Assembly: GCA_963829205.1 (NCBI GenBank)
Contig: CAWHHT010000005.1
Coordinates: 1,032,082 to 1,096,081 of the forward strand
Reading direction: 5' to 3'
Source: an uncultured Thermoleophilia bacterium
GTDB taxonomy: Bacteria; Actinomycetota; Thermoleophilia; UBA2241
Length of the DNA: 64,000 nt
Shown here: one piece after another, positions 1,933 to 30,288 of the stretch
How positions within the stretch are numbered: position 1 is the stretch's first letter
Layout of the letters: the number at the start of each line of letters is the position of its first letter
The notes under the pieces: model-generated
What the model was told of the DNA's origin: nothing
The model's database searches: none
What the model saw: the letters and a program-made list of their open reading frames with translations, nothing else
Translations under genes and position numbers: made by a program

Positions 1933-2808
1933 TCAGACCGGGCGGGTGCCGGCGACGCGGTCGGCGAGGGCCGCGTCGCCCAGCTCGCGGCAGACGCGGC
2001 GAAAGTCATCTGTCGGGCCGCGCCACTCGAGGTCGGCGAGCGTCTCCTCGAGTGGCACGTCCACGCGCAAGCGCGCCAGGCGCCTGTACAGCAGCGCCTC
2101 ATCGCGGTGCGCCGCGAGGCTCTCCGCCAGGCGCGCGGCGCGCCCGGCCGGCAGGCCCAGGGCGCCCGGGTCCTCGGGGATGGCCTCGAGATGCGCGAAG
2201 CGCGCCAGCACGGCGGCCGCGGACTTGGCGCCCCAGCCGGGGATCCCCGGGAAGCCGTCGGCCGCGTCCCCGACCAGCGCCAGCCAGTCGGGGATCGACG
2301 CCGGCGGTACGCCGAACTTCGCGACGACGCCGGCCTCGTCGAGGACGATGCCGCGGCGGCGGTCCCAGCTCACGACGCGCGTGCCGGAGACCGCCTGCGC
2401 CAGGTCTTTGTCGGGCGAGCAGATCACGACCTGCTCGACGCCCGGCTCGTCCTTGAAGCGCGCCGCCGCGGTCGCCAGGGCGTCGTCGGCCTCGAACTCC
2501 ACCATGGGCCACACCACCACACCCATCGCGGCGACCGCCGTCTCCGCCAGCTGGAACTGATCGAGCAAGCCGCGCTCGACCCCCTCGCCGGTCTTGTAGC
2601 CCGGGTAGAGGTCGTTGCGGAACGATTCGATGACATGGTCGAAGGCGCAGGCGACGTGCGTGACGCCGGGCTCCGACAGCAGCATCGCCAGGCTCCGGAG
2701 CAGGCCCACCGTCGCGCCCACTTCGCCGCCGTCAGGGCCCTTGCGGGGCGGCGCCCCGAAGTAGTTGCGAAAGAGCTCGTAGGTGCCGTCGATCAGGTGG
2801 AGCTTCAT
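1933..2808 (-). CDS. 5'-3' exonuclease (FEN / Pol I 5'-nuclease family)
   Basis: This is the C-terminal 291 aa of the 804-aa listed ORF, starting MKLHLIDGTYELFRNYF. It carries typical motifs (FDHVIESFRNDLYPGYK, EADDALAT, GFPGIPGWGAKSAA). Its ATG at 2808 overlaps the upstream stop as ATGA. Confidence 0.9.
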   Translation of the reverse strand: MKLHLIDGTYELFRNYFGAPPRKGPDGGEVGATVGLLRSLAMLLSEPGVTHVACAFDHVIESFRNDLYPGYKTGEGVERGLLDQFQLAETAVAAMGVVVWPMVEFEADDALATAAARFKDEPGVEQVVICSPDKDLAQAVSGTRVVSWDRRRGIVLDEAGVVAKFGVPPASIPDWLALVGDAADGFPGIPGWGAKSAAAVLARFAHLEAIPEDPGALGLPAGRAARLAESLAAHRDEALLYRRLARLRVDVPLEETLADLEWRGPTDDFRRVCRELGDAALADRVAGTRPV

Positions 2809-3747
2809 GCCACGAGGACGACCTTGCCGAGCTTCCCGCCGGCGGCGAAGCAGTCGTAGGCCGCCGCCGCGTCGCTCAGTGCGAAGGTCTCGCTCACGGG
2901 CACGCGCAGGCGCCCGCCGGCAAGCAGCGGCAGTGCCCGCGCGCCGAGTGCGGCGATCACCTGCGCCTTCTGCTCCCGGCTGCGGGAGCGCAGGTTCGAG
3001 GCGAAGAGCCGCCCGCGGCGGCCCATCAGCAGCCGCAGGTCGAGCTCGAGAGCAGCGCCGCCGCCGACCCCGATCACGACCGCCCGGCCCTGCGATGCCA
3101 GGTGCTGCAAGCGCGACCTGCAGGCTGGAGGCGCCGACCAGCTCGAGCACGACGTCGTAGGGGCCGTGCGCGGAGACGTCGCCTGGCGCTATCACTGCGG
3201 CGGCGCCGAACGCGGCAAGAGCCTCACCGTGCGCGGCGTGACGGGTCGAGGCCACCACGTGGGCGCCGGCGATGGCTGCCAGCTGCACGCCGGCGCAGCC
3301 GACGCCGCCAGACGCGCCCGTGACGAGGATCCGCTCACCGAGGGCGAGACCGGCCTGAGCGAACAGCGCGTCGAATGCGGTCGCGTACACCTCCATGAAC
3401 CCACCTGCCTCCGGCCACGCAGCGCCGACCGGCACGGCCAGCGCGTGTTCCTCATCGACCGTGGCCAGCGTCGCCTGGGCGCCGCCGCCGACCAGCGCCA
3501 TCACGCGGTCGCCCGGCGCGAAGCGCGTGACGCGAGCGCCGGCCGCCACCACCTCCCCCGCCATCTCGAGACCCGGGACGTCGGGCGGCCAGCCCGGCGG
3601 CGCCGGGTAGGCGCCCCGGCGCTGCGCAAGGTCGGCGCCGTTGACGCCGGCGGCCCGCACGGCCACAAGGAGCTCGTGGTCGCCCGGCGCAGGATCGGGC
3701 CGCTCCCGCCAGGCCAGTCGGCCATCTTCGATGACTATCGCCTGCAT
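2805..3747 (-). pseudogene. NADPH:quinone oxidoreductase / zinc-type alcohol dehydrogenase family, apparent 1-nt frameshift
   Basis: The N-terminal 213 aa (MQAIVIEDG...VVLELVGASSLQVAL) are in the frame of ORF 1933..4347. The C-terminal 101 aa (QHLASQGRAVVIGVGGG...GKLGKVVLVA) are in the frame of ORF 2805..3110. The junction is at TT 3109-3110, and the length of 943 nt equals 3n+1. GGAGG lies 7 nt before the ATG at 3747. Confidence 0.85.
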
Positions 3748-3787
3748 CGCCGGCCTCCGCGTGTGCTCATCCGCGCCCAGTGAGCTC

Positions 3788-4628
3788 TCATACCCCGGAC
3801 GGGCTGCGATGCACGCGCCAGCCCTGCCCGTCCGCGATCTCGAGCGAGGCCGCACCCGCGCTCGCCTCGATGGTGAAGAAGTCGCGCTCGGGCCGGCCGG
3901 GCACGTAGTCGAGCACGCGATGGATCGACAGCCGTCACGTCGGGATTGAGGACGCAGATGTGGACGCTGATGGTCTTCGCCCGCGGCTCCACCGTCTTGC
4001 CCGGCGCCAGGTAGTCCCGCAGCTTGAACGGGTTGCTGAGCCGCGAGATCGCCGCGTCCAGCGTGCGCAGAAGCCCCTGCAGTGTCGCCTCGTTGAGGTC
4101 GCGTGCTACCTGGAACCAGAGCGCGTCCGGCCGCTCGGCGAGGACCTTGGCGACGTCCTTCCTTATGCTCTCGTCGATCTCGGACCGGCCCGAGCGCCCG
4201 CCCGACTTGAAGTCGACCACCAGGGCGGGCTCGTCGTGCGGCCGCCGGTAGAGGGCAAGGTCCGTCAGCCCGCGCTGCGCCTTGCCCTCGCCGCGCAGCG
4301 CGAACCGGTAGGACAACCGCGTCGGCACCTCGGCGGCGAAGGCCCACTGGTCCGCGTCCGGATCGGCGAGGAGCGCGGCGACGAAGGCGGCGCGCGCTTC
4401 CTGCTCACCGGCGCGGCGCTCGCGGCCTTTGAGCGGCAGCATGACGCGCGGCCACGCCGCGCCGGGTCCGCCCAGAGCGAAGCGGTAGCCGTCCCAAAGG
4501 ATCTGGTCCGCGCGCCGGCAGACGTCTTCCAGCCAGGTCTCCTCCACCCCGCCCCCTTGCGGCCGCGACCTTCTCAGGCGCACTTCACGGCTGCGGGCCG
4601 CACGAATGCGGCCCACAGCCCGGATCAT
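3788..4628 (-). pseudogene. Hypothetical protein with PD-(D/E)xK-like motif; apparent frameshift near 3925-3940
   Basis: ORF 3735..4628 reads protein-like up to VHICVLNPDV. High GC3 then moves to another frame (SIHRVLDYVPGRPERDFFTIEASAGAASLEIADGQGWRVHRSPSGV, stop 3790-3788). The GLTDLALY...ALVVDFKSG...ESIRKD pattern resembles D...(D/E)xK nuclease motifs, which is an inference. An alternative GTG start is at 4547. Confidence 0.4.
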
Positions 4629-4649
4629 TTGGTGAGTACGGTGCCGCCG

Positions 4650-4856
4650 TCAGTGTACGGCGCCGCAGTAGGAGGCGTCGCCGAGCCGGCAGAGGAGCTC
4701 CTCCTCGGAGCCGTAGGTCCGGGACGGCATCGACTGTACCTGCGATATGACGTCGAGCGGGCAGCTGTTGCCCGAGGCGCAGTCGACGATCTTGTGGCCA
4801 TCGGCCGGGAAGCTGATGCCGCTCAGGCAGCGGTCCAGCGTGCTCTTGTCGATCAT
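4650..4856 (-). CDS. DUF2795-like small protein
   Basis: 68 aa with very high GC3 and a GAGAGG Shine-Dalgarno before the ATG. The pattern L.GISFPA.GHKIVDCA...G....V...VQSMP.R.Y.S..E resembles the DUF2795 family. Confidence 0.65.
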   Translation of the reverse strand: MIDKSTLDRCLSGISFPADGHKIVDCASGNSCPLDVISQVQSMPSRTYGSEEELLCRLGDASYCGAVH

Positions 4857-5021
4857 CTCGACCTCTCTTGGACTGGGCCCTGCGCGCCCTCGCTCGGTGC
4901 ACGCCCGGGTCGCGGGAGTGGGTCTGCGACCCGCCGCCGCCCTCTGTCTGTTCCCGAGGCGGCGGATGCGAGACCGTTGGCCTTCGCCTGCCGGACCGCC
5001 GCAGAGCGCCGCGCTCCGGCC

Positions 5022-5318
5022 TCAGCCGCTGCGGGTCCGCTGGCGGCCGCGATTGCGCTGCGCTGCCGCCGGTCGCGCCTTGCCCCACTCGGAGGGGCGG
5101 CCGTGGCCGCGCTCGGTCTGGTGGGCGAACAAGTCGCCGCGCCGGGCGAAGGATTCGCCGCAGGTGGCGCAGCGGAACGTGATGGGAGTGCCCAGCCGCG
5201 CCTCGCTGCACTGGTCGTGCTGCAGGCACATGTGATTATCCAAGTCGCGCTGCGACCTGAGCTCCGCGTGACAGATCTCACAGTCGTAGGTCTTTCTTGG
5301 GGTAGTGAGTGCGGGCAT
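5022..5318 (-). CDS. Small basic protein with two classical C2H2 zinc fingers
   Basis: 98 aa with good GC3. The fingers are YDCEICHAELRSQRDLDNHMCLQH (C-x2-C-x12-H-x4-H) and FRCATCGESFARRGDLFAHQTERGH (C-x2-C-x12-H-x5-H). Both keep the hydrophobic x3-(F/L)-x5-L spacing. The tail is Arg-rich. Confidence 0.7.
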   Translation of the reverse strand: MPALTTPRKTYDCEICHAELRSQRDLDNHMCLQHDQCSEARLGTPITFRCATCGESFARRGDLFAHQTERGHGRPSEWGKARPAAAQRNRGRQRTRSG

Positions 5319-5492
5319 ATGCTTCGTCCTCTCGACGACTGGCCGCGTCCGGTGGGCTCGACTGACCGGCCACGAACGTCACGGCCGTTTGAGCCAGCAA
5401 CAAAGTATTCCCGCGCCTACACATCGAGACGCACTCCGCCCGCCGCAGCGGCCTCGCGAGAGGACGCCCGTCGCTGAAGTGCCCGGCCGAGG

Positions 5493-6947
5493 CTAGCGGC
5501 CGCCCGCAGTCGCCGCCCCGACGCTGACGGGCTCCGGCGCGGCCTCGTCGGCCGCGGGTGAGTGTGCTGGCCGCCCGACGAGCGCCCGCAGGTAGGCGCG
5601 GTTGGCCGGCTCCCTCCGCCACCGGTGGATGTACAACCAGCCCCAGAGGTGCTCGAGCAGACGGCCAAAGCGCAGGCGCGCGAGGTACTTGAGACTCCGC
5701 CTCAGCGAGTAGAAGTGCAGGTAGCCCTTGACGACCTCGGTCTGCAGCTCGAGCGGCGTCATGTGCCGCGGCTCATAGATCACGTGCTGGCCGTCGTAGA
5801 ACTGCCAGCGCTCCTCGAAGACGCGAGCGCCGGCGTTCATGGTCTCGTACTGCTTGGTGCCAAGCCCGGGCGTGAGCACGTTGAGCATCAGGCTGTCGAT
5901 GCCGTGCTCCTCGGCGAACGCCACCGTGTCGCGCGCCGTCCTGGCGGTGTCGTTGTCGGCTCCGATGACGAACATCCCGTGGCACTTGATCCCGTGCCGG
6001 TGCAGGGCGGCGATGCAGTCCGTTATGTCCTCGACCGTCTGCGACTTGGCGTAGCTGTCCAGCGTGGCCTGGTCGACCGACTCGAAGCCGAGCGCAAGAC
6101 GGTTGCAGCCGGAGCGCTTCATGAGCTCCAGCAGCTCGTCGTCGCGGGCCACGTCGCTGCGGACCTGGGCCATCCACCTCGGGGTGATCCCGCGGTCGAT
6201 CATCATGCGGAGGAGCTCCTTCAGGCGCCGCTTGTTGGCGGCGAAGTTGTCGTCGTAGAAGAAGACCCGTTTCGGCCGCCTGGCCTCGAGCTCTGCGATC
6301 ACGTTCTCGTTGCTGCGGAAGCGGTAGGTGCGTCCGAACATCATGGTCACGGTGCAGAAGGTGCAGTCGAACGGGCAGCCCAGGCTCGTCATGATGGGCG
6401 TCTCGTAGATGCGCTCCGAGCCTACGATCAGCGAGAGGTCCGGGACCTGGAGGGCGTCGAGATCGGCGGGGCGCTCGCGCAGCTCGTTGTGCACCGCCTG
6501 CTCGCCGCGCCAGAACGTCAGCCCGCGGATGCTGTCGAGCTCGCGCTCGCCGCGCAGAGCCTCGATGAGCTCCAGCATGAGGCCGTCGCCGCCCTCGCCA
6601 CGAGCCACGAAATCGGCGTGTGGCAGGGCATCGTCGGGCACGAACGTGGGATGCGGGCCGCCGATGATCACGCGCAGACCGGAGGCGCGCAGCTCATCGG
6701 CCAGGGCGTAGGCGGCTGGAGCCGTCGATGTCGTCGTCGAGATGCCGACGAGATCGGCGGAAGCGACGTCGTCGCGGTCGATGGGCGCCGCCTGGGGACA
6801 GTAGATGAGCACGTCGTGGCCGGCGGCCTTGAGGGCCGCGCCGATGAGCGGCAAGCCGAGGCGCGGATAGAAGCCGTAGGAGAGGATGTTGACGCTGGGC
6901 GGAGCGGGCTCGATGAGCCGGATCTTGAGGCTCTCTGACGTGACCAT
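5493..6947 (-). CDS. B12-binding domain-containing radical SAM protein (class B)
   Basis: ORF 5493..7013 trimmed to the ATG at 6947 (MVTSESLKIRLIEP). It has an N-terminal B12-binding-like Rossmann segment and a CPFDCTFC (CxxxCxxC) cluster motif, with an rSAM core after that. Confidence 0.9.
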   Translation of the reverse strand: MVTSESLKIRLIEPAPPSVNILSYGFYPRLGLPLIGAALKAAGHDVLIYCPQAAPIDRDDVASADLVGISTTTSTAPAAYALADELRASGLRVIIGGPHPTFVPDDALPHADFVARGEGGDGLMLELIEALRGERELDSIRGLTFWRGEQAVHNELRERPADLDALQVPDLSLIVGSERIYETPIMTSLGCPFDCTFCTVTMMFGRTYRFRSNENVIAELEARRPKRVFFYDDNFAANKRRLKELLRMMIDRGITPRWMAQVRSDVARDDELLELMKRSGCNRLALGFESVDQATLDSYAKSQTVEDITDCIAALHRHGIKCHGMFVIGADNDTARTARDTVAFAEEHGIDSLMLNVLTPGLGTKQYETMNAGARVFEERWQFYDGQHVIYEPRHMTPLELQTEVVKGYLHFYSLRRSLKYLARLRFGRLLEHLWGWLYIHRWRREPANRAYLRALVGRPAHSPAADEAAPEPVSVGAATAGGR

Positions 6948-7073: not shown

Positions 7074-7643
7074 CTACGTCATGGCGTCGTGCGCGGTGAT
7101 GATCGCCTCGGCCACTTCGCGCAGCGACTTGCGCTTGTCCATCGCCAGCTTCTGCAGCCGCTGGTAGGCCTCCGGCTCCGTGAGGCCGGTGGACATGAGC
7201 AGCCCCTTGGCTCGATCGAGCATCTTGCGGGTCTCGAGGCGTTCCTCCAGGTCGCCGACCTGGCGTGCGAGCACGGCCGCTTCGGCGAAACGGCTCACCG
7301 CGACCTGCATGGCCGGGATGATGTCGTGGCTCGAGAAGGGCTTGACGACGTAGCCCATGGCCCCGGCGCGCGCGGCCTCGTCGACCAGGCTTGCCTGCGA
7401 GAACGCCGTGACCATGACGACCGGCGCGATCGACTCGGCGCCGATCGATGCGGCGGCCTGGATGCCGTCGACGTTCGGCATGTTGACGTCCATGAACACG
7501 ACGTCCGGCCTCAGGCTGCGGGCAAGCGCGAGCGCCTCGGCGCCGTCTCGCGCCTCGCCGACCACCTCGTGCCCCTCTTCCTCAAGCATCTCGCGCAGAT
7601 CCATGCGGATGAGCGCTTCGTCCTCGGCGATCAGTACGCGCAT
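7074..7643 (-). CDS. pdtaR: ANTAR-domain response regulator (PdtaR type)
   Basis: MRVLIAEDEALIRMDL...DVNMP receiver domain plus a C-terminal ANTAR helix bundle (ETRKMLDRAKGLLM...EAYQRLQKLAMDKRKSLREVAEAI). The ATG at 7643 lies inside listed ORF 7074..7841. Confidence 0.9.
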   Translation of the reverse strand: MRVLIAEDEALIRMDLREMLEEEGHEVVGEARDGAEALALARSLRPDVVFMDVNMPNVDGIQAAASIGAESIAPVVMVTAFSQASLVDEAARAGAMGYVVKPFSSHDIIPAMQVAVSRFAEAAVLARQVGDLEERLETRKMLDRAKGLLMSTGLTEPEAYQRLQKLAMDKRKSLREVAEAIITAHDAMT

Positions 7644-7671
7644 GGGCGGCCTTCTGCCGGCGTTGAAGGGG

Positions 7672-9084
7672 TCATGCGGCGGCGTCCGGCAGCGGCACGC
7701 GTATCGTGACCTCCGAGCCGTGCTCGCTGCGCACCGCGAGCGAGCCGCGGAGGTCCTCCTCGACGAGCGTGCGGACGATGGAGAAGCCGAGGCTCCCCGA
7801 CGCGAGCAGATCGGCTCCGTCCGGCATGCCGCGACCGTCATCGCGCACGCTCAGCACGAGCTCGCTCGCGGTCCTCCCCAGCTGCACCTCCACGGCCCCG
7901 GCCGCGCCGGGCTCGAACGCGTGCAGCAGAGCGTTGTGCACGAGTTCCGTGAGCGCCAGGGCGAGGGACGTGGCCACGGCCGCGTCGATCTGGCCCAGGG
8001 AGCCGGAGACGCTCACCGCGATGCGGCCCTCGTCGCCGATGAGGCTGTCGCGCACGAGGGCGACCACCCTGCCCGCGACCTCCGAGAAATCGACGCACTC
8101 GTTGGTGGAATGTGCCAGCAGATCGTGCACCGTGGCCATCGAGGCCGCGCGTTCGGTCGCCTCGGTGAGGGCGCGGCGCACCTCGGCGCTGTCGCTCCGC
8201 CGCGCCTGCATGCGCAGCAGGGAGGCGATGGTCTGGAGGTTGTTCTTGACGCGATGGTGGACCTCGCGGATGGTCGCCTCTTTGACGTCGAGCTCGCGCT
8301 CGCGCCGGCGCTCTTCCGTGAGGTCTTCGACGAGCACGAGCACGCTCGAGCTCAGGGAGAGGGCGCGGTAGCCGAGGATGCGCCCCGCCACCTCGATCTC
8401 CGTCGCCACGGCGCCGGTGGCGCCCACGACGGGCGATATGCCGGCTCCGCCCCCGGGCAGCTCCGAGGCGCGCATGCTGGTCACGCGGCCCTCGACGCCG
8501 GCGATGCGCATGATGCTCACCGCGTTCGGCGACGCATAGCTGATGGAGCCGCGCGCGCCCACGCGCAGGAGCCCATCCCCGGGACTGCGGCTCGTCGAGA
8601 ACGGCTCACCGCTGCGCGCGTCCAGTATCGGTCCCGTACGCAGCGTCTCGAGAAGATCGCGGGAGCAGCCGATGAAGGCGTTCTCCATCCGGCTTGAAGT
8701 CGCGTCCAGCTGCTCGCCGTAGGTGCGCAACACGACGGCGTACGGCCGGGGCGCGCCGATCGGGAAGGCGTCGCAGCTGCGCGTCACGCCGCCCGTGGCG
8801 CAGCGCTTGGACCCTTCGACCGCATGGCGGCGCTCGACGGCGGCGTAGGCCTCCGGCTCCTCCTCGCGAGAGAGCACCTGGCCGACGCGGGAGGCTGGAA
8901 TGGGATCGGCGGCCGTGCTCGGGCGCGCGTCCGCGAGCACGCTGAGCAGGCCGCGCGCGTCCACGATCGCGAGCGCGGCGTCCCCGTACCCGAGATCCGC
9001 GACCAGCTGCAGATTATCGGCGACATTGGCAAGATGCTCGCGCACGTGCTGCGGGACGCGCGATGTCGGCGTAGTGCGAAGCAC
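7672..9084 (-). CDS. pdtaS: Sensor histidine kinase, PdtaS type (GAF/PAS + HisKA_2 + HATPase)
   Basis: H-box EVHHRVKNNLQTIASLLRMQ with ATPase motifs ELVHNALLHAF and DDGRGMP. A GTG at 9084 lies 4 nt after the upstream gene's stop. The exact start is uncertain. Confidence 0.85.
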   Translation of the reverse strand: MLRTTPTSRVPQHVREHLANVADNLQLVADLGYGDAALAIVDARGLLSVLADARPSTAADPIPASRVGQVLSREEEPEAYAAVERRHAVEGSKRCATGGVTRSCDAFPIGAPRPYAVVLRTYGEQLDATSSRMENAFIGCSRDLLETLRTGPILDARSGEPFSTSRSPGDGLLRVGARGSISYASPNAVSIMRIAGVEGRVTSMRASELPGGGAGISPVVGATGAVATEIEVAGRILGYRALSLSSSVLVLVEDLTEERRRERELDVKEATIREVHHRVKNNLQTIASLLRMQARRSDSAEVRRALTEATERAASMATVHDLLAHSTNECVDFSEVAGRVVALVRDSLIGDEGRIAVSVSGSLGQIDAAVATSLALALTELVHNALLHAFEPGAAGAVEVQLGRTASELVLSVRDDGRGMPDGADLLASGSLGFSIVRTLVEEDLRGSLAVRSEHGSEVTIRVPLPDAAA

Positions 9085-9088
9085 AGGC

Positions 9089-9907
9089 TCAGTATACGCG
9101 GGAGGCGAGCGGCTCAAGCGCCCGGTCCGAGAGGCGCAGCCACGAGTCGTAGCCTGCCGCCCGTGCCCAGGCGCGCGCCTCGGCGAGGTGCGCGCCCACC
9201 TCGGCCGCGGCGTGCGCGTCGGAGCCGAAGGTGACGGCGACGCCCGCCACGCGGGCACGCTCGAGGAGGCTCAGTGAGGGATACGGCTCCCCGATGGGAT
9301 GACGGTCGAGCCCAGCGGTGTTGACCTCGATCGCCATACCGGCCGCCGCGATGGCCCGGATCACCTCAAGCTCGAGGTCGCCCATGTCGCCGCGCGGGCG
9401 AAAGCCCCATTTCTTGGGGAGATCGAGATGGGCGACCACGTCGAACGCGCCGGTCTTGGCCGCTTCGATGAGCGTCTCGTAGTAGCGGCGCCAGAGGCGG
9501 TCCACGTCGCGCCAGCCCGCGGCCGCGCGGTTGTGCGATTCGTCGAAACTGAAGCCGTCGACGAAGTGCACCGCGCACAGGGCGTAGTCGAAGGGGTATG
9601 CCGCCAGCAGCTCCAGGATCTCTTCGGCGGCACCCGGCACATAGTCGGCCTCGACGCCGCAGAGGAGACGGATGCCCGGGTAGCGCGCCGCCGCCGAGCG
9701 CACCGCGGCCACGTACTGGCCGAAGTCCTCGCGAGGGCAGCAGGCGCTGTCCGCGAGGCATGCAGGCGTGAAGTGCTCGGCGAAGCCCAGCTCAGGCAGG
9801 CCCAGCTCCAAGGCGCGTTCGACGCAAGCGGAGATCCCGTCCGCACCGTCGGAGAACCGGGTGTGCACGTGGTAGTCGCACATGCCTGCCGTGCTGCCGG
9901 CTAGCAT
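9089..9907 (-). CDS. Histidinol-phosphate phosphatase, PHP family (HisJ/HisK type)
   Basis: MCDYHVHTRFSDG...EADY...HLDLPKK...GSDAH metal-ligand pattern of PHP histidinol phosphatases. The ATG at 9907 overlaps the upstream stop (ATGCTAG). An alternative ATG is at 9883. Confidence 0.8.
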   Translation of the reverse strand: MLAGSTAGMCDYHVHTRFSDGADGISACVERALELGLPELGFAEHFTPACLADSACCPREDFGQYVAAVRSAAARYPGIRLLCGVEADYVPGAAEEILELLAAYPFDYALCAVHFVDGFSFDESHNRAAAGWRDVDRLWRRYYETLIEAAKTGAFDVVAHLDLPKKWGFRPRGDMGDLELEVIRAIAAAGMAIEVNTAGLDRHPIGEPYPSLSLLERARVAGVAVTFGSDAHAAAEVGAHLAEARAWARAAGYDSWLRLSDRALEPLASRVY

Positions 9908-25882: not shown

Positions 25883-26806
25883 TCAGCTCAGCCGCGTGAC
25901 GAACCGCTCGTAATCGGGGTCCTCGCCCCTCAGGACGGCCAGGTACCGCTCCCTGATGCGCGCCGTGACCGGGCCGATACTGCAGCCGTTGACGACGCGT
26001 GCGTCGACCTCGACCACCGGCGCCACGTAGGTCGACGTCCCGCAAGCGAAGACCTCGTCGGCGATGTAGAGCTCGGTCAAGTCCACCTCACGCTCATGGA
26101 CCGGCAGGCCGAGTCGCTCCGCGATGAGCAACACGGTGCTGCGATTGATCCCCTCGAGGAGATCGCTCGCGGTGCTCGGCGTGATCAGCACCCCGTCGCG
26201 CACGATGAAGATGTTGGCGGCGCTGAGTTCACAGACGTGCCCGGAGGCGTCGAGGAAGATGCAGTCGTCGTAGCCGCTGTCGATCGCGTCCTGCTTGGCG
26301 AGCACCGAGTTCACGTAGGCGCCGTTGACCTTGGCGCGCGAGGGGATGGCGTAGTCGGGGATGCGCCGCCAGACGCTCGTCTTCAGGCGGGCGCCCTCGA
26401 GCGGCAGGATGGCCTCTGCCGTGTAGACGAAGATGCTGAGCAGCGTCGAGATGCCGCGCGAGCGCGTCCCCGGGAGCTGCTCGTCCACGTGCACACTCAC
26501 CCTCACGAACACGTCCTCGGAGACGTCATTCGCGTGCACGACCTCCTTGACGGCAGCGATGAAGCGCTCCTCGCTCCACGCCGGTTCGAACGTGTCGATG
26601 CCAATGATGCGGGCGGAATTGACGAGGCGGCGGTAGTGGTCGGCGAGGCGGAAGGCGACAGCGTCGCGACCGTGCGTCGTCGTGACGGGCAGGACCGTGT
26701 AGACGCTGAGGCCGTAGAGCACCGCCGCGCTGGTGATGCTGAGCTGCGCGTCCGCGGTCGAGATGATGCCGGATCCAAAGTACGCCTTGGGGTAGACCTG
26801 TGCCAT
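25883..26806 (-). CDS. ilvE: Branched-chain amino acid aminotransferase (class IV)
   Basis: 307 aa carrying SRAKVNGAYVNSVLAKQDA, ELSAANIF, EGINR and CGTS motifs of fold-type IV transaminases. Confidence 0.85.
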   Translation of the reverse strand: MAQVYPKAYFGSGIISTADAQLSITSAAVLYGLSVYTVLPVTTTHGRDAVAFRLADHYRRLVNSARIIGIDTFEPAWSEERFIAAVKEVVHANDVSEDVFVRVSVHVDEQLPGTRSRGISTLLSIFVYTAEAILPLEGARLKTSVWRRIPDYAIPSRAKVNGAYVNSVLAKQDAIDSGYDDCIFLDASGHVCELSAANIFIVRDGVLITPSTASDLLEGINRSTVLLIAERLGLPVHEREVDLTELYIADEVFACGTSTYVAPVVEVDARVVNGCSIGPVTARIRERYLAVLRGEDPDYERFVTRLS

Positions 26807-26931
26807 GTGAGACCTCTGTTGCGACTGATGGGGAGCTGCGCCTTGTCGAGAGGGGTGTACCTACCAGAACCCGCGGCCGCCCGCAACTGCGTCTCCGGCC
26901 GCTCGCCACCGACGCAAGGAGGGACAGGGAC

Positions 26932-27708
26932 CTAGGTGTTGACCACGATCGCCTTGCGTTTGTAGACCGTCACGGACAGAAGATACGAGACGATGAGAAG
27001 ACCGAGGATCCAGGCTATGGCCGTCCAGACCTTGGGGCCGGCCGTGCCATTGACCATCAGTGAACGCATCGTCTCAACCACCGGGGTCATTGGCTGATTC
27101 TCGGCGAAGCCCCGCAACAACGGTGTCATGGAGTTCGTCGGCACGAACGCGGGGCTGATGAAGATGAGCAGAAGGAGGACGTAGCTGAATGCGCCTGCCG
27201 CCTCCGTCGTCTTTGCAAGCAGGCCGAAGAAGATGGCCAGCCACGTCGTCGAAAGCGTGAACAGCACCAGGATCCCGGCGAAGGCCAACCATCCCACCAC
27301 GCCGGCCTGTGACCGGAACCCCATCGCGAACGCCACCAGAAAGACCAGCAAAGATGAGAAGAGGTTGGACAAGGTCGACGATGCGACCTGCCCGCCCAGG
27401 ATCGACGATGGCGCGACCGGCATCGTCCTGAAGCGGTTGATGATGCCACTCTGCACGTCCATGTTCAGGCGTACTGCGGCGTAGGCAATGCCGCTGATGA
27501 CCGTCATGACGACGATCCCCGGCACGATGAAGTCGATGTAGCTCACTGAGCCCGTCTGCTGCCCCAGCGCCCCACCCCACACGTAGACGAACAGGAGCAT
27601 GAGGGCGATCGGCATCAGGAGCACCGTGATGATCGTGTCTGGACTGCGGGTGATATGCCGCAGACTGCGCTTCGCCAGCGTCCAGGTATCTGAGAGCATG
27701 CGCATCAT
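26932..27708 (-). CDS. ABC-2 type transporter permease
   Basis: 258 aa with six hydrophobic spans. The ATG at 27708 overlaps the ATPase stop as ATGA. Confidence 0.85.
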   Translation of the reverse strand: MMRMLSDTWTLAKRSLRHITRSPDTIITVLLMPIALMLLFVYVWGGALGQQTGSVSYIDFIVPGIVVMTVISGIAYAAVRLNMDVQSGIINRFRTMPVAPSSILGGQVASSTLSNLFSSLLVFLVAFAMGFRSQAGVVGWLAFAGILVLFTLSTTWLAIFFGLLAKTTEAAGAFSYVLLLLIFISPAFVPTNSMTPLLRGFAENQPMTPVVETMRSLMVNGTAGPKVWTAIAWILGLLIVSYLLSVTVYKRKAIVVNT

Positions 27709-28646
27709 TCGTCCTCTCCGTTTGCGCCGGTTATCGCGAGGAAGACGTCGTCGAGCGTAGCCACCTCTTGGGAGAACTCAGTCGGCTCGATACGAGCCTC
27801 CTCGAGTCCGGCGAAGATGCTGGCTACTTGAGCCACCGTGCCATCTGTGGTGATCGTCAGCGTCGCGCCCTCGCCTTCAGTGTGAGCGTGACTCTTGCCA
27901 AGCACCCTCGCGGCAGCATCACGAGTCTCTTCGTCGTGGAAAGTCAGCTCGATCAGCCCACCCGGCACAAGCTTCTTCAGCTCGCTCGCTGTTCCACTGG
28001 CGACGATCCTGCCTTGGTGCAAGACCGCGATGGTGTCGGCCAGCTCATCGGCTTCTTCGAGATGCTGCGTCGTGAGGAAGACCGTCGTTCCGCCTTCGGC
28101 CAGTTCGCGGATCGTCCGCCACATCTCATTGCGGGCTTCCGGGTCAAACCCGGTGGTGGGTTCGTCCAGGAAGATGACCGAAGGGGTGCCGATCAGGCTC
28201 ATGGCGACGTCGAGGCGTCGGCGCATCCCGCCGGAGAACGTCGACACACCGCGATCGGCCGCTTCTTCCAGCCCGAACCGCCGCAACAGGTCTGCGGCGG
28301 TCTTGGCGGAGTCGGCTACATGGCGCAGGTCACCGATGAGCAGCAGGTTCTCACGGCCCGTCAGCTGATTATCGACGGCAGCGAATTGGCCGGTCAGACT
28401 GATCTCGTTGCGCACCCTGTCCGGTCGTGCAGCGATGTCGTAGCCGGCCACCGTGGCCGTGCCGCCATCGGCCTTGATGAGCGTCGTCAGGATGTTGATG
28501 GTCGTGGTCTTGCCGGCACCGTTGGAGCCCAGCAGCGCGAAGATGCTTCCCCGCGCCACGTCGAAGTCCACGCCCTTGAGCACCTGCAGCTTCTTGTAAG
28601 ACTTCTGCAATCCGTGGACATGGATCGCAACGTCCTTCGCTTCCAT
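27705..28646 (-). CDS. ABC transporter ATP-binding protein (DrrA-like)
   Basis: Walker A GSNGAGKTT, signature FSGGMRRR, Walker B VIFLDEPT. Confidence 0.9.
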   Translation of the reverse strand: MEAKDVAIHVHGLQKSYKKLQVLKGVDFDVARGSIFALLGSNGAGKTTTINILTTLIKADGGTATVAGYDIAARPDRVRNEISLTGQFAAVDNQLTGRENLLLIGDLRHVADSAKTAADLLRRFGLEEAADRGVSTFSGGMRRRLDVAMSLIGTPSVIFLDEPTTGFDPEARNEMWRTIRELAEGGTTVFLTTQHLEEADELADTIAVLHQGRIVASGTASELKKLVPGGLIELTFHDEETRDAAARVLGKSHAHTEGEGATLTITTDGTVAQVASIFAGLEEARIEPTEFSQEVATLDDVFLAITGANGEDE

Positions 28647-28659
28647 GCTTCTCGTCTCC

Positions 28660-29517
28660 CTATTCCACGGTCACGGTCGACAGGTCGGCGCCCATGCCTT
28701 TGAGCCCGGCGTACGTCAGCTTGTCCATGCGCGCCCCATCGAAGACGACGGTGCGGATGGCGGTGCGGTACTTCCTGCTCCAGGCGCGGAAGGACACATC
28801 GCGCAGCGTCGCACCCCGGAACGTGACGCCGTTCAGCGCCGCCCTGTCGAACCTCACGCCGGTGAAAGCTGCCCCGTCCAGGTTCAGACCGCGCAGATCG
28901 GAGTATGTGAAGTCCACACCGGTGAACGTGCAGTTCTCGAAGACCGTGCGCCTCAGGTCGACCATGCGGAACTTGACGTCCGTGAACGCGACCTCCGTGA
29001 ATCGGGCCTCGGTCAGCCCCGACTTGCTGAAGTCGGTGCGCACCAGGATGGAGCCGCGGAAGCTGGCACGTGCCAGCTCGGACGTCGATATCTTCGCATC
29101 GGTGAGATCGGCGCCGTCGAAGTTGACGTCCGCCACATCGCTGCTCCTGAACGAGCTGCCCGTCAGATCGGCACGCGAGAAATCGGAGCCGCGCAGCACG
29201 CTTGCATCGAACTTCCCGCCCGGCACCCTGACGTCCGCGAAATCGCTCTCCCCGAGCTCGCTCGCATCGAATCTCGTCACCAGTTGACGCTCGAGCGATC
29301 GGGAGAGGTTGGAGACCTCCTGCACGGTCTGCTCGATATCGCCGATACTGTCGATGGTCAACTCGAAGGCTGCCGCGTCGTCCTTGCCCTCGGCCTTGAG
29401 CTCGCGGAACCGCTCGTGCAGATCCGCAAGCAGGTCCGCTTTCAGCTCGTTGATGCTCTTAGCACCCTCGTAGGGCGCGAAGACGCCGTCCACGTATTCG
29501 TCTAGTCTGTCGCTCAT
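28660..29517 (-). CDS. Pentapeptide-repeat protein with N-terminal helical (PadR-associated) segment
   Basis: Long run of A(D/N)LxG-type pentapeptides (ADLTGSSFRSSDVADVNFDGADLTDAKI...). It lies directly downstream of padR. Confidence 0.8.
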   Translation of the reverse strand: MSDRLDEYVDGVFAPYEGAKSINELKADLLADLHERFRELKAEGKDDAAAFELTIDSIGDIEQTVQEVSNLSRSLERQLVTRFDASELGESDFADVRVPGGKFDASVLRGSDFSRADLTGSSFRSSDVADVNFDGADLTDAKISTSELARASFRGSILVRTDFSKSGLTEARFTEVAFTDVKFRMVDLRRTVFENCTFTGVDFTYSDLRGLNLDGAAFTGVRFDRAALNGVTFRGATLRDVSFRAWSRKYRTAIRTVVFDGARMDKLTYAGLKGMGADLSTVTVE

Positions 29518-29529
29518 CGATTCGTCTCC

Positions 29530-29859
29530 TCAAAGCAATGTGTCGAGCACGCGCTTCGCGTATTCCCAGTTGCTCTTGTTGCGGGCATGGGTCGCCCTGC
29601 CCTTCTCCGTGATCCGGAAGTACTTGCGCCTGCCGCCCTGAGATTCGTCGCCCCAGTACCACGTGATGTCGCCGTCCGCTTCCAGGCGCCGGACGCTTGA
29701 GTACATCGTGGCTTCCTTGAGCTCGTACTCGCCGTGCGAACGCTCGGCGATCAACTTGACGATCTCGTAGCCATAGCAGTCGGATTCCGTCAGCAGCCGT
29801 AGGATCATCGTGTCGGTGTTCCCACGCAGCAGATCGGATGTGATCCTGTTTGCGCTCAT
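29530..29859 (-). CDS. PadR family transcriptional regulator
   Basis: MILRLLTESDCYGYEIVKLI...ATMYSSVRRLEADGDITWYWGDESQGGRRKYFRITEKG. The ATG at 29859 has GGAGGTG 6 nt upstream. Confidence 0.9.
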   Translation of the reverse strand: MSANRITSDLLRGNTDTMILRLLTESDCYGYEIVKLIAERSHGEYELKEATMYSSVRRLEADGDITWYWGDESQGGRRKYFRITEKGRATHARNKSNWEYAKRVLDTLL

Positions 29860-30288
29860 CTCAGCACCTCCGACGGACAGTGTATGTCCTTGTACTGTGT
29901 CTGTCAAGGTAATAGTGATGGCACACTACATGGACGCGTGTAGGAGCTTGCTTCGGGCCGCCATCGACCCCAACGTCGTTTCCAATTCGAACGGGTGCTG
30001 GAGGCCTTGATGACGTGTCGCCGGCGGGCAAATGCACCGGATGCAGGCTCTTCCCAGCGGCCGCCGGCCGTGCCGACGCCCTGGCCACGGCCGCCAGGAC
30101 TCACGGGCCACGTTGCCGGGAGGCTCTGGTTCGCGAACCGAAAGGCTCCGCGCGGTGCCGGTATGCGATACTTAGTGGCAGCCGCGGCTGGTCAGGCCTC
30201 GTCGGGAAGCCGCACCACAGCCTCACGGTGAGCGGGGGCGATATGAAGCACGACAGAGGTCGGCTCGTTGCCACGACGATAGCGGCGC

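What the first reader, a model, noticed from the sequence alone, without database searches (positions are those of the whole stretch)
5022..5318. Bacterial small protein with two eukaryote-style C2H2 zinc fingers
The 98-aa product has two motifs that match the full classical pattern (F/Y)-x-C-x2-C-x3-(F/L)-x5-L-x2-H-x4-5-H. They are YDCEICHAELRSQRDLDNHMCLQH and FRCATCGESFARRGDLFAHQTERGH. A 13-residue linker separates them and an Arg-rich tail follows. Codon usage (GC3) supports real coding. Classical tandem C2H2 fingers are rare in bacteria, where the known Ros/MucR type is a single, divergent finger. This is therefore a candidate nucleic-acid-binding protein of an unusual kind.
Basis: partly seen in the sequence, partly recalled or inferred. 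Interest (0 to 1): 0.65.

Follow-up and report, generated by a model that had tools for sequence, protein, structure and literature searches.

The report
Bacterial two-finger classical C2H2 protein
A soil actinobacterium (class Thermoleophilia) encodes a real, conserved 98-residue protein with two textbook 'eukaryote-style' C2H2 zinc fingers and an arginine-rich tail, most likely a small nucleic-acid-binding regulator, from a domain class that is rare and uncharacterised in bacteria.

Summary
Window 5022-5318 (minus strand) encodes a 98-aa protein with two complete classical C2H2 motifs. These are the only two such matches in all six frames of the 64-kb window, against none in 200 shuffles. 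Pfam zf-C2H2 scores above its curated cut-off. AlphaFold2 predicts beta-beta-alpha twice at moderate confidence. Sequence and fold searches of PDB return only classical finger arrays (designed fingers, CTCF, Zif268, Tramtrack).

The gene is real. GC3 is 0.86, and dN/dS is 0.29 in the fingers and 0.20 in the linker. It belongs to a narrow family of about 140 clusters, found almost only in uncultured Thermoleophilia genomes, with up to four old paralogues per genome. All eight zinc ligands are invariant.

Three things are new:
- The base-contacting helix positions are conserved across the whole family.
- Every copy has its own conserved ~115-nt upstream unit: a SigB-type promoter (GTGCCC-N14-GGGAAT; 16-nt spacer in the window) and a conserved leader seen only before these genes.
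- There is no conserved partner gene.

Best reading: a stand-alone, probably stress-induced, zinc-dependent DNA- or RNA-binding regulator. The target is unknown and zinc binding is untested. It is a new bacterial member of a known domain class and moderately interesting.

The parts
5022..5318 (-). Coding sequence of the 98-aa two-finger protein (stop codon 5022-5024)
   Evidence: ORF and translation. GC3 0.86. Median dN/dS 0.35 over 740 locus pairs. 95-140 homologous clusters.
5217..5288 (-). Finger 1 (residues 11-34). Predicted Zn ligands C13, C16, H29, H34 (H-x4-H). Helix positions S22(-1), R24(+2), D25(+3), N28(+6).
   Evidence: Pattern match. Pfam zf-met/zf-C2H2 stretch 11-30. Strands 11-12 and 19-20 plus helix 23-32 in the AF2 model. 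Ligands invariant in 88 sequences and in the distant subfamily. Helix positions have low entropy.
5178..5216 (-). Conserved 13-residue inter-finger linker (residues 35-47, DQCSEARLGTPIT), not TGEKP-like. It holds invariant D35, C37, G43, I46 and T47. C31 (inside the finger 1 helix) and C37 form an extra Cys pair specific to the main subfamily.
   Evidence: Invariant columns. Lowest dN/dS of the protein, 0.20. C31 is replaced by W/S/G and C37 is lost in some members of the distant subfamily.
5103..5177 (-). Finger 2 (residues 48-72). Predicted Zn ligands C50, C53, H66, H72 (H-x5-H). Helix positions R59(-1), R60(+1), G61(+2), D62(+3), A65(+6).
   Evidence: Best Pfam zf-C2H2 stretch 48-68. Aligns to designed and consensus fingers in PDB 2i13 and 1mey. 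Strands 48-49 and 56-57 plus helix 60-70. Ligands invariant. R60 invariant and R59, D62 nearly invariant.
5025..5102 (-). Arg-rich, probably disordered C-terminal tail (residues 73-98), with the conserved P75-x-E77-W78 motif followed by R/G/P-rich sequence
   Evidence: pI 12.0. pLDDT about 48-56. dN/dS 0.49, but Arg-richness is kept across the family.
5327..5333 (-). Shine-Dalgarno GAGAGGA, inside the most conserved block of the leader (TCGAGAGGACGATGCC in the family)
   Evidence: Read from sequence. Block pairwise difference 0.18, against 0.32 at third codon positions and 0.51 in the variable part of the leader. Alignment.
5319..5400 (-). Conserved 5' leader: TTGCnnGGTCAAAcGGCCGTG box (5380-5400), a variable GC-rich hairpin-prone middle, then GGACGCGGCCAGTCG (right arm CGCGGCC at 5341-5347) and the SD block
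   Evidence: Conserved in about 35 of 40 loci, including paralogues. The box is unique in the window. The leader box together with the upstream GGGWAY box is found only upstream of two-finger genes in 472 kb of loci, and in 8 of 8 interpretable metagenome cases. No Rfam match. RNA structure not demonstrated.
5407..5434 (-). Putative promoter: -35-like GTGCGT (5429-5434), 16-nt spacer, -10-like GGGAAT (5407-5412). The family consensus is GTGCCC-N14-GGGAAT. The inferred transcription start is near 5400.
   Evidence: Conserved boxes. No sigma-70 consensus promoter in 4600-5600. GGG plus A at position 5 is the signature of SigB-type promoters in Streptomyces coelicolor and B. subtilis (PMC8346170). 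The start site is inferred, not mapped.
4990..5020 (-). GC-rich inverted repeat immediately after the stop codon; a possible U-tract-less terminator
   Evidence: Inverted repeat I3: 13-nt arms, 85% complementary, 5-nt loop. No canonical intrinsic terminator found. The downstream sequence is not conserved between loci.

Best explanation
The gene encodes a small (11 kDa, pI 9.4), stand-alone nucleic-acid-binding protein.

**Proposed mechanism.** Each of two classical beta-beta-alpha fingers is folded around one Zn(II), through C13/C16/H29/H34 and C50/C53/H66/H72. The two recognition helices present a family-invariant set of polar and basic side chains (S-1, R+2, D+3, N+6; R-1, R+1, D+3) to a nucleic-acid groove. 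The disordered Arg-rich tail adds non-specific phosphate contacts, as basic extensions do for one- and two-finger eukaryotic proteins. The 13-residue linker is not TGEKP-like and is the most constrained part of the protein, so the two fingers probably do not read two contiguous triplets in the canonical way.

**Expression.** The gene is a self-contained unit made of its own promoter, leader and hairpin. The promoter looks like a SigB-type general-stress or differentiation promoter rather than a housekeeping one, so the protein is probably induced under stress or in stationary phase.

**Target.** Both the recognition residues and the ~115-nt upstream region are co-conserved in all paralogues, and the leader occurs only in front of these genes. 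The most economical specific hypothesis is that the protein binds its own promoter/leader (autoregulation) as well as other, unknown targets.

**Shown:** the motifs, a real gene under purifying selection, the family and its taxonomic range, ligand conservation, the predicted fold, conserved upstream DNA, and no conserved partner gene.

**Inferred:** zinc binding, nucleic-acid binding, the sigma-factor class, stress induction and autoregulation.
For: - **Motifs and Pfam.** PF00096 scores 33.4 bits against a cut-off of 25.2.
- **Chance expectation.** Zero strict-pattern matches in 200 shuffles.
- **Predicted fold.** AF2 gives two strand-strand-helix units, with pLDDT 72-74 in the finger blocks.
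- **Fold search.** Foldseek top hits are all DNA-bound classical finger arrays, including the two-finger Tramtrack 2drp, at probability 0.9-1.0.
- **Sequence search of PDB.** phmmer returns Aart, ZFP568, the consensus finger and CTCF.
- **Ligand conservation.** The eight ligands are invariant in 88 family members and in the distant subfamily.
- **Selection.** dN/dS is 0.29 in the fingers, 0.20 in the linker and 0.49 in the tail.
- **Recognition positions.** They have low entropy family-wide.
- **Taxonomy and copy number.** 41 loci, almost all in Thermoleophilia MAGs, with 4 copies on one 948-kb contig. Paralogues are old: L007 is 94% identical to a copy in another MAG but 67-87% identical to its genome-mates.
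- **Gene context.** No conserved neighbours, and intergenic gaps on both sides.
- **Upstream unit.** It is conserved and exclusive to these genes.
- **Promoter class.** The SigB-type consensus comes from PMC8346170, and no sigma-70 consensus promoter is present.
- **Host context.** The gene is native to the chromosome in this window: GC3 matches its neighbours, and the flanks are ordinary genes (DUF2795, B12 radical-SAM, PdtaS/ANTAR two-component system).
Against: - There is no experimental evidence of any kind for zinc, binding, expression or phenotype.
- The AF2 model is only moderately confident overall (mean pLDDT 62, pTM 0.36). Foldseek E-values are no better than 2e-3, and the global TM-score is low because the fingers are matched one at a time.
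- Classical fingers can also bind RNA or proteins. Finger 1 also passes the cut-off of zf-met, a family that includes dsRNA binders.
- The window's own promoter copy has a 16-nt spacer, outside the 12-14/15 nt seen in characterised SigB-type promoters, and its -35 is weak.
- Autoregulation rests only on co-conservation.
- Five loci lack the middle ~55 nt of the leader, so that part is dispensable.
- The invariant extra cysteines C31 and C37 are unexplained.
Confidence: 0.6

Rival explanations
1. It is an RNA-binding zinc-finger protein, for example a binder of structured or double-stranded RNA, or a ribosome- or RNA-chaperone-associated factor, rather than a DNA-binding transcription factor. 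Its conserved leader would then be an RNA target for translational autoregulation.
For: Finger 1 exceeds the gathering score of zf-met PF12874 (24.5 against 21.2), and there is a weak hit to the dsRNA-binding zf-C2H2_jaz family. Finger 2 has the H-x5-H spacing typical of that class, and the linker is long and not TGEKP-like. The Arg-rich tail resembles arginine-rich RNA-binding motifs. The leader is GC-rich and hairpin-prone, with fold z-scores down to -3.7 in some copies. The SD lies in the most conserved block. The family-wide invariance of the recognition residues would suit a conserved cellular RNA.
Against: PF12171 is below its cut-off (17.0 against 22.6). Every closest structural match is a DNA-bound finger array. 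No consensus RNA structure was found. Pairing and covariation in the candidate stems do not exceed the controls. The window's own leader folds no better than shuffles (z = -0.42). There is no Rfam family.
Confidence: 0.2
2. It acts mainly through protein-protein contacts, for example as a small adaptor or modulator of RNA polymerase, a sigma factor or a signalling protein. The fingers would serve as structural or interaction modules and the C31/C37 pair as a redox sensor.
For: The linker, which has no nucleic-acid role in canonical fingers, is the most constrained segment (dN/dS 0.20), and it carries invariant C37, D35, G43, I46 and T47. The conserved PxEW motif lies after finger 2. An RpoD-like sigma gene lies within 0.3-2 kb in three loci. 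A distant relative sits beside PAS kinase, response-regulator and SpoIIE phosphatase genes. Classical fingers are known protein-recognition modules (general knowledge; cited in PMC3541406).
Against: No partner gene is conserved across loci. C31 and C37 are not kept in the distant subfamily. The helix positions that contact bases in canonical fingers are the conserved ones. High pI and an Arg-rich tail favour polyanion binding.
Confidence: 0.1
3. It is an accessory protein of integrative mobile elements, such as a regulator or a recombination directionality factor working with a tyrosine integrase. The window copy would be a domesticated or stranded cassette.
For: In one clade (L004, L005, L007, L009, L013, L032) a tyrosine integrase, or its 3' remnant, lies convergently 50-90 nt after the stop codon. 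A ~60-bp sequence identical to the integrase 3' end flanks the finger cassette on both sides in L004 and L009 and is repeated in arrays. The protein is small and basic, like excisionases. The family is multi-copy, with sharply bounded conservation (promoter to stop) and variable surroundings.
Against: 35 of 41 loci, and the window itself, have no integrase or att-like repeat next to the gene. The window's neighbours are ordinary chromosomal genes, partly syntenic with close relatives. The orientation is convergent, not an int-xis operon. The paralogues are old orthologous lineages, not recent transposition products.
Confidence: 0.07
4. It is a spurious ORF, or eukaryotic contamination, that happens to contain finger-like patterns.
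For: High-GC DNA produces many long spurious ORFs; several overlap this locus.
Against: The frame-specific GC3 is 0.86. dN/dS is well below 1, and start and stop are conserved in 39 loci. Shuffles gave zero matches. The contig is 1.12 Mb and bacterial, with bacterial genes on both sides.
Confidence: 0.01

Closest known systems
Classical (TFIIIA/Kruppel-type) C2H2 zinc fingers of eukaryotes, Pfam PF00096; closest solved examples are designed/consensus fingers (2i13, 1mey), CTCF, Zif268 and the two-finger Tramtrack (2drp)
   Same: Both fingers have the full (F/Y)-x-C-x2-C-x3-(F/L)-x5-L-x2-H-x4-5-H pattern. The protein passes the Pfam cut-off, and beta-beta-alpha is predicted for each finger. Finger 2 (FRCATCGESFARRGDLFAHQ) aligns residue for residue with consensus fingers (YKCPECGKSFSQRANLRAHQ).
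   Different: The host is bacterial and there are only two fingers. A conserved 13-residue Cys-containing linker replaces TGEKP. His spacing is x4 and x5 rather than the commonest x3. Recognition positions are invariant across paralogues instead of diversified. The C-terminus is an Arg-rich tail, and there is no effector domain.
Ros/MucR family of Alphaproteobacteria (Pfam PF05443), the characterised 'prokaryotic C2H2 zinc finger'
   Same: A bacterial, small, zinc-dependent (Cys2His2-type) DNA-binding regulator. Its relation to the eukaryotic finger is debated (PMC7710501 abstract).
   Different: There is no profile match even at E<=10. Ros has one divergent site with C-x2-C-x9-H-x3/4-H inside a larger ~58-residue globular domain (established knowledge). 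Here there are two independent fingers with canonical x12 spacing. The phyla also differ.
AFV1p06 and relatives from archaeal viruses: a classical single finger with a basic extension (PMC3541406)
   Same: A small prokaryote-associated protein with a true eukaryote-type beta-beta-alpha finger plus a basic, flexible segment. DNA binding was shown experimentally for AFV1p06.
   Different: AFV1p06 has one finger, is archaeal/viral, and has its basic region N-terminal. That study found no bacterial homologues. No direct sequence relationship was detected here.
GAGA factor and similar one- or two-finger proteins whose basic regions supplement the finger
   Same: It is a working model of how one or two fingers plus basic flanking residues can achieve specific DNA binding. 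There is a weak Pfam GAGA hit (E 0.046, 14.3 against 20.2 bits, below cut-off).
   Different: This is not a member, because it scores below the cut-off. The basic region here is C-terminal and much longer. The resemblance is functional only and comes from general knowledge.
dsRNA-binding fingers (zf-met PF12874, JAZ-type PF12171)
   Same: Finger 1 passes the zf-met cut-off. Finger 2 has H-x5-H, and the linker is not TGEKP-like.
   Different: JAZ-type scores below its cut-off. The linker is far shorter than in JAZ/ZFa proteins (from memory). The overlap with PF00096 means this hit does not discriminate.

Membership tests
Classical C2H2 zinc finger (Pfam PF00096) | Sequence pattern (F/Y)-x-C-x2-4-C-x3-hydrophobic-x5-L-x2-H-x3-5-H | tested here: met
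   Two matches, residues 11-34 and 48-72; none in 200 shuffles.
Classical C2H2 zinc finger (Pfam PF00096) | Profile score at or above Pfam's gathering threshold | tested here: met
   33.4 bits against 25.2; E = 5e-8; two stretches.
Classical C2H2 zinc finger (Pfam PF00096) | Beta-hairpin plus alpha-helix (beta-beta-alpha) fold for each finger | tested here: met
   The AF2 secondary structure is EE..EE..H(23-32) and EE..EE..H(60-70), with pLDDT 72-74 in the finger blocks but a mean of only 62. Foldseek hits are exclusively classical fingers. This is a prediction, not a solved structure.
Classical C2H2 zinc finger (Pfam PF00096) | Conservation of the two Cys and two His of each finger among homologues | tested here: met
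   C13, C16, H29, H34, C50, C53 and H66 are invariant. H72 is present in all 87 sequences with a residue at that column, out of 88 aligned. In the distant subfamily the last His sits at x3 instead of x5.
Classical C2H2 zinc finger (Pfam PF00096) | Stoichiometric Zn(II) binding required for folding | not testable with these tools
   Needs purified protein (ICP-MS, PAR assay, Co(II) titration, NMR).
Canonical tandem (Kruppel-like) finger arrays | Short conserved TGEKP-type linker (7 residues from His to the next aromatic/Cys block) | tested here: not met
   The linker is 13 residues, DQCSEARLGTPIT (consensus DDCGEARLGTPIT), and is conserved but unrelated to TGEKP.
Ros/MucR (Pfam PF05443) | Match to the ROS_MUCR profile, with a single C-x2-C-x9-H-x3-4-H site | tested here: not met
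   PF05443 is absent from the 24 families listed at E<=10. The spacing here is x12 in both fingers.
dsRNA-binding zinc fingers (PF12874 zf-met / PF12171 zf-C2H2_jaz) | Profile score above the gathering threshold | tested here: inconclusive
   zf-met scores 24.5 against 21.2 (met), and zf-C2H2_jaz 17.0 against 22.6 (not met). Both overlap the stronger PF00096 match.
SigB-type (SigB/F/G-like) promoters | A -10 element GGG(A/T)A(A/T/C), with GGG and the A at position 5 nearly invariant | tested here: met
   GGGAAT at 5407-5412. The same box is seen in nearly all loci. The consensus is taken from PMC8346170.
SigB-type (SigB/F/G-like) promoters | A -35 element GTTT/GNNT about 12-14 (up to 15) nt upstream | tested here: inconclusive
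   The family has GTGCCC with a 14-nt spacer, comparable to the GTGATG-N14 and GTGTAG-N14 promoters listed in PMC8346170. The window copy has GTGCGT with a 16-nt spacer.
SigB-type (SigB/F/G-like) promoters | Transcription start mapped downstream, and dependence on the sigma factor | not testable with these tools
   Needs 5'-RACE, a transcriptome, or in vitro transcription.
Excisionase / recombination directionality factors | Encoded next to the cognate integrase inside an integrative element | tested here: not met
   There is no integrase and no att-like repeat near the window gene; the only remnant in the window is at 36663-36725. The feature is met only in 6 of 41 related loci, and there in convergent orientation.
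Known RNA families (Rfam 15), for the 5' leader | Covariance-model match | tested here: not met
   No relevant hit at E<=10 in 4600-5800.

The most novel reading that the evidence does not exclude
Thermoleophilia carry a lineage-specific family of true classical (eukaryote-type) tandem C2H2 zinc-finger proteins that act as sequence-specific, stress-sigma-controlled and autoregulated regulators. This would be the first functional classical finger transcription factors in Bacteria. The extra Cys pair (C31/C37) may make them redox-responsive, and in one clade they are moved as promoter-plus-gene cassettes between ~60-bp att-like repeats by a tyrosine integrase. Such a family would give an independent bacterial reference point for the debated origin of the eukaryotic finger, against the view that Ros/MucR is the ancestor.
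Probability: 0.3. Interest if true: 0.7.

Novelty: new member of a known kind. Interest (0 to 1): 0.5.

Why it matters
The classical C2H2 finger is the commonest DNA-binding domain of animals, yet it is regarded as practically absent from bacteria. There, the only studied 'C2H2' regulator, Ros/MucR, is a divergent single-site domain. This is a conserved, multi-copy bacterial family with two fully canonical fingers, under purifying selection, in an abundant but uncultured class of soil actinobacteria.

- It offers a tractable 11-kDa protein for asking whether bacterial classical fingers bind zinc and DNA as eukaryotic ones do.
- It adds a data point to the open question of where the eukaryotic finger came from.
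- It points to an unstudied layer of regulation in Thermoleophilia, probably stress-linked.

The dedicated promoter and leader co-inherited with every copy provide a concrete first binding target to test.

Tried and rejected
1. **Conserved operon or partner gene.** tblastn of the window's ten neighbours against 41 loci, plus de novo clustering of all flanking ORFs, found only patchy synteny with close relatives: 5'-3' exonuclease, ADH, B12 radical-SAM and DUF2795, in 1-8 loci each. A functional gene cluster is rejected.
2. **Structured RNA or riboswitch in the leader.**
   - Rfam gave no hit.
   - RNAalifold predicted no consensus pairs.
   - Fold z-scores ranged from +0.03 to -3.7, and -0.42 for the window copy.
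   - The candidate stem GGCCGTG/CGCGGCC is 88% paired, but pairing and covariation do not exceed the shuffle controls (17/500 and 86/500).
   - The inner region folds differently in different copies.
   - A defined RNA structure is therefore not claimed.
3. **A regulon sharing the promoter/leader.** The boxes were searched in the window, in 472 kb of loci and in the metagenome collection. They occur only in front of two-finger genes. The other 69 of 80 fetched metagenome matches lack the GGGWAY box and the two-finger ORF, are mostly in lower-GC contigs, and look like chance.
4. **Known bacterial or defence families.** NCBIfam and PADLOC gave no hit for the protein.
5. **A third zinc site from C31/C37 with H72/H74.** This is rejected as a family feature. 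H74 is only 78% conserved and is Arg in the window protein, and C31/C37 are absent from the distant subfamily.
6. **The neighbouring sigma factor as the cognate SigB-like factor.** It is a generic RpoD-like paralogue and is uninformative.
7. **tRNA genes as integration sites.** There are none in the window or in ten loci.
8. **Other copies of the gene in the window.** There are none.
Full report
**1. Checking the observation**

The ORF at window 5022-5318 on the minus strand (ATG start, TGA stop) is listed by the ORF finder. It translates to MPALTTPRKTYDCEICHAELRSQRDLDNHMCLQHDQCSEARLGTPITFRCATCGESFARRGDLFAHQTERGHGRPSEWGKARPAAAQRNRGRQRTRSG.

- Both quoted motifs are present at residues 11-34 and 48-72, and both fit the full classical pattern. 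A 13-residue linker separates them. A 26-residue tail with 8 Arg follows; the tail has a pI of 12.0 and the whole protein a pI of 9.4.
- GC at codon positions 1/2/3 is 0.63/0.60/0.86. The same phase of high third-position GC continues into the flanking minus-strand genes.
- In the six-frame translation of the whole 64-kb window the strict pattern occurs exactly twice, both in this ORF. It never occurred in 100 mononucleotide shuffles or in 100 triplet shuffles.
- Pfam's zf-C2H2 model scores 33.4 bits against a gathering cut-off of 25.2, with two matched stretches. Ros/MucR is not among the 24 families listed at E<=10.

**2. Is it a real gene and a real family?**

A search of 5.8 billion protein clusters found 95 relatives, almost all 94-97 aa and 58-80% identical to the window protein. 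A profile search that included distant members raised this only to 140. An exhaustive HMMER pass over 1.84 billion representatives found three family representatives and a handful of small distant relatives. Otherwise it found long multi-finger proteins, matched finger by finger.

- In an 88-sequence alignment, C13, C16, H29, H34, C50, C53 and H66 are invariant. H72 is present wherever the column is occupied.
- A distant subfamily (P0140, P0158, P0189, P0224; 36-40% identity) keeps the same eight ligands, with the last His at x3 instead of x5. It also keeps the invariant G-x2-ITFRC junction.
- Across 39 loci the median dN/dS is 0.35: 0.29 for the fingers, 0.20 for the linker and 0.49 for the tail.

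**3. Fold**

AlphaFold2 with the 88-sequence alignment gives only moderate overall confidence (mean pLDDT 62, pTM 0.36). The secondary structure is strand-strand-helix twice: strands 11-12 and 19-20 with helix 23-32, then strands 48-49 and 56-57 with helix 60-70. The finger blocks have pLDDT 72-74, while the N-terminus, the mid-linker and the tail are low.

Foldseek against PDB returns only classical finger-DNA complexes: CTCF, ZFAT, Aart, Zif268, ZBTB7A and the two-finger Tramtrack peptide 2drp. Probabilities are 0.9-1.0, but E-values are no better than 2e-3 and the global TM-score is low, as expected for two beads on a flexible string.

By sequence, finger 2 aligns with designed and consensus fingers, for example FRCATCGESFARRGDLFAHQ against YKCPECGKSFSQRANLRAHQ.

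**4. Who has it, and in what context?**

A scan of one genome per species (GTDB) found 41 loci. Almost all are in MAGs labelled Thermoleophilia, Solirubrobacteraceae or unclassified Actinomycetota from soil, peat and sediment. One record is labelled Deltaproteobacteria. No cultured species appears.

- One 948-kb contig carries four copies, and two other MAGs each have two loci (one of them a partial match).
- The paralogues are old. L007 is 94% identical to a copy in a different MAG but 67-87% identical to its own genome-mates.
- The window has a single copy.
- Its neighbours are a DUF2795 gene 165 nt downstream, a B12-binding radical-SAM gene upstream, then an ANTAR response regulator and PdtaS-type kinase, a PHP protein and an aminotransferase.
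- Neither tblastn of these neighbours nor de novo clustering of all flanking ORFs finds a partner that travels with the finger gene. The gene is flanked by intergenic gaps on both sides in nearly every locus.
- NCBIfam and PADLOC have no model for it. JGI's pipeline calls relatives 'uncharacterized C2H2 Zn-finger protein'.

**5. The unexpected part: a dedicated upstream unit**

The upstream DNA is conserved in about 35 of 40 loci, including paralogues. The family consensus is GTGCCC-N14-GGGAAT-A..T-A-(G)TTGCtcGGTCAAAcGGCCGTGG-(variable GC-rich segment)-GGACGCGGCCAGTCG-TCGAGAGGACGATGCC-nn-ATG. This spans about 135 nt in most loci and about 115 nt in the window copy.

- Downstream of the stop codon nothing is conserved, except within one clade described in section 7.
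- Pairwise differences in the conserved blocks are 0.18-0.30. This compares with 0.32 at third codon positions and 0.51 in the variable segment.
- In the window the elements are: -35-like GTGCGT 5429-5434, a 16-nt spacer, GGGAAT 5407-5412, the TTGC/GGTCAA box 5380-5400, and the SD GAGAGGA 5327-5333.
- No sigma-70 consensus promoter is present.
- The -10 box has the signature reported for SigB-type promoters. The consensus is GTTTAA-N12-14-GGG(A/T)A(A/T), with GGG and the fifth-position A almost invariant and a weak GNNT/GTTT -35. Examples include GTGATG-N14-GGGTAG and GTGTAG-N14-GGGAAC (PMC8346170).
- A distant-subfamily locus (L043) also has GGGTAC about 45 nt upstream. It lies beside PAS-kinase, response-regulator and SpoIIE-phosphatase genes.

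The sigma-factor assignment is an inference from consensus resemblance. The window's 16-nt spacer is atypical.

The box combination is specific to these genes. In 472 kb of loci plus the window it occurs only upstream of finger genes. Among 80 fetched metagenome matches to the TTGC..GGTCAA...GCCGTG box, 11 also have the GGGWAY box. Of those, 8 are followed by a two-finger ORF, 2 are cut by the contig end, and 1 is a low-GC chance hit.

**6. Is the leader a structured RNA?**

I could not show it.

- Rfam has no match.
- RNAalifold predicts no consensus pairs.
- Single-sequence fold z-scores run from +0.03 to -3.7, and -0.42 for the window copy.
- The recurrent stem GGCCGTG/CGCGGCC is paired in 88% of cells, but this is because both arms are conserved. 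Neither pairing (17/500) nor covariation (86/500) exceeds the shuffles.
- The inner 'CGAGAG' segment sits in a loop in some copies and in a stem in others.
- Five loci lack the middle ~55 nt altogether.

The conservation may equally reflect DNA-level operator sites.

**7. How it most likely works**

*Shown:* two canonical finger motifs with invariant ligands, the predicted beta-beta-alpha fold, a basic disordered tail, purifying selection, a self-contained transcription unit, and no partner gene.

*Inferred:* one Zn(II) per finger, with nucleic-acid recognition through the helices. In canonical numbering the base-contacting positions are S22(-1), R24(+2), D25(+3) and N28(+6) in finger 1. In finger 2 they are R59(-1), R60(+1), G61(+2), D62(+3) and A65(+6). 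These positions are among the least variable in the family: R60 is invariant, and R59, D62, Q23 and R24 have entropy of 0.36 bits or less.

Unlike eukaryotic finger families, then, the paralogues have not diversified their specificity. They probably all see the same kind of site. Both the recognition residues and the cis region are co-conserved in every copy, and the leader is exclusive to these genes. Autoregulatory binding to the gene's own promoter/leader, as DNA or as RNA, is therefore the most concrete testable hypothesis.

The linker is not TGEKP-like and is the most constrained segment (dN/dS 0.20). This suggests a fixed inter-finger geometry or an interaction surface, rather than the canonical wrap around contiguous triplets. 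Two extra cysteines, C31 and C37, are (nearly) invariant in the main subfamily but absent from the distant one. They cannot be core ligands. A redox role is possible but untested.

The rivals, with their confidences, are RNA binding (0.2), protein-protein adaptor (0.1), mobile-element accessory protein (0.07) and artefact (0.01).

**8. Comparison with what is known**

Membership of the classical C2H2 domain family is met on every feature testable here: pattern, Pfam cut-off, predicted fold and ligand conservation. The exception is the TGEKP linker of canonical tandem arrays, which is not met. Zinc binding is not testable with these tools.

It is not Ros/MucR, since there is no profile hit and the spacing differs. 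The closest prokaryote-associated precedent is AFV1p06 from an archaeal virus, a single classical finger with a basic extension that binds DNA. That study found no bacterial homologues and called the motif 'practically absent in bacteria', with 489 UniProt examples, or 0.003% (PMC3541406). A census of prokaryotic transcription factors counted 59 PF00096 proteins in about 3% of genomes (PMC7017128).

I found no paper on classical fingers in Thermoleophilia. A 'C2H2-like protein' is listed among the cargo of Frankia integrative elements, but it is not characterised (PMC3218068).

**9. Verdict**

It is a new, lineage-restricted bacterial member of a known domain class. Its interesting particulars are canonical tandem fingers, a conserved unusual linker with an extra Cys pair, invariant recognition residues, and a private SigB-type promoter and leader.

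It is not a new kind of system. Function, zinc binding and target are all untested. Interest is 0.5.

Noticed in passing
window 36663-36725; L009 (1317-1373, 3987-4043, 4884-4943, 5585-5645, 6387-6444), L032, L005, L004, L007, L013: A ~60-bp sequence (CGATCCCGGCGATGCAGGAGGAGGCTGCGGAGCTGATCGCGGGGCTGGTGTTCGCGGGC) is 85-96% identical across different MAGs. It equals the 3' end of a tyrosine integrase gene (full length in L013 679-1926, frameshifted in L007). It is repeated in same-strand arrays, with at least 5 copies in 5 kb of L009. The units between repeats carry assorted small accessory genes: two glyoxalases, a nitroreductase, a BlaI-type repressor and the zinc-finger gene. This looks like att-site accretion, or an integron-like cassette array.
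   Followed up: partly
L004, L005, L007, L009, L013, L032 (one clade of the finger family): In this clade the integrase, or its 3' remnant, lies convergently a constant 50-90 nt after the finger gene's stop codon. In L004 and L009 att-like repeats flank the promoter-plus-gene cassette on both sides. This is not so in the window.
   Followed up: partly
window 5319-5434 (minus strand): The upstream unit is conserved: a SigB-type promoter-like GTGNNN-N14/16-GGGAAT plus a leader with TTGC..GGTCAA and GGCCGTG/CGCGGCC boxes. It is exclusive to the two-finger genes. Whether it acts as DNA or as RNA is unresolved.
   Followed up: yes
window 5210-5227 (residues C31 and C37): Two extra cysteines, in H-M-C-L-x-H-D-x-C, are invariant (C37) or nearly invariant (C31) in the main subfamily but absent from the distant one. 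They are not needed for the canonical zinc sites. A redox switch or another role is unexplained.
   Followed up: partly
window 1933-4347 (minus strand): A single 804-codon ORF with no internal stop joins a zinc-type alcohol dehydrogenase (residues about 220-415) to a 5'-3' exonuclease (residues 515-779). In related loci the two occur separately (L006, L025 and L012 have the exonuclease; L014, L019 and L023 the ADH). These are probably two adjacent in-frame genes in high-GC DNA rather than a fusion.
   Followed up: no
window 7074-9258 (minus strand): A PdtaS-type histidine kinase (GAF_PdtaS, HisKA_2) is followed by an ANTAR response regulator (PdtaR-like). This is an RNA-binding antitermination two-component pair about 2 kb upstream of the finger gene. 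The adjacency is not conserved in other loci.
   Followed up: no
window 26000-30000: GC content dips to 0.62-0.64, against about 0.68-0.72 elsewhere. This may be a horizontally acquired segment, and it lies a few kb from the att-like repeat at 36663-36725.
   Followed up: no
window 4650-4856 (minus strand): A 68-aa DUF2795 protein is encoded 165 nt downstream on the same strand. The same pair appears on an independent 1.4-kb Logan contig (ERR11594405), and a DUF2795 gene lies about 600 nt downstream in L018. Otherwise the two are not linked.
   Followed up: partly
L043 1786-5728 and 6001-6300: A member of the distant subfamily sits divergently beside a PAS histidine kinase, two response regulators (one fused to a SpoIIE/PP2C phosphatase) and a truncated RpoD-like sigma gene. 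It has its own GGGTAC box upstream.
   Followed up: no
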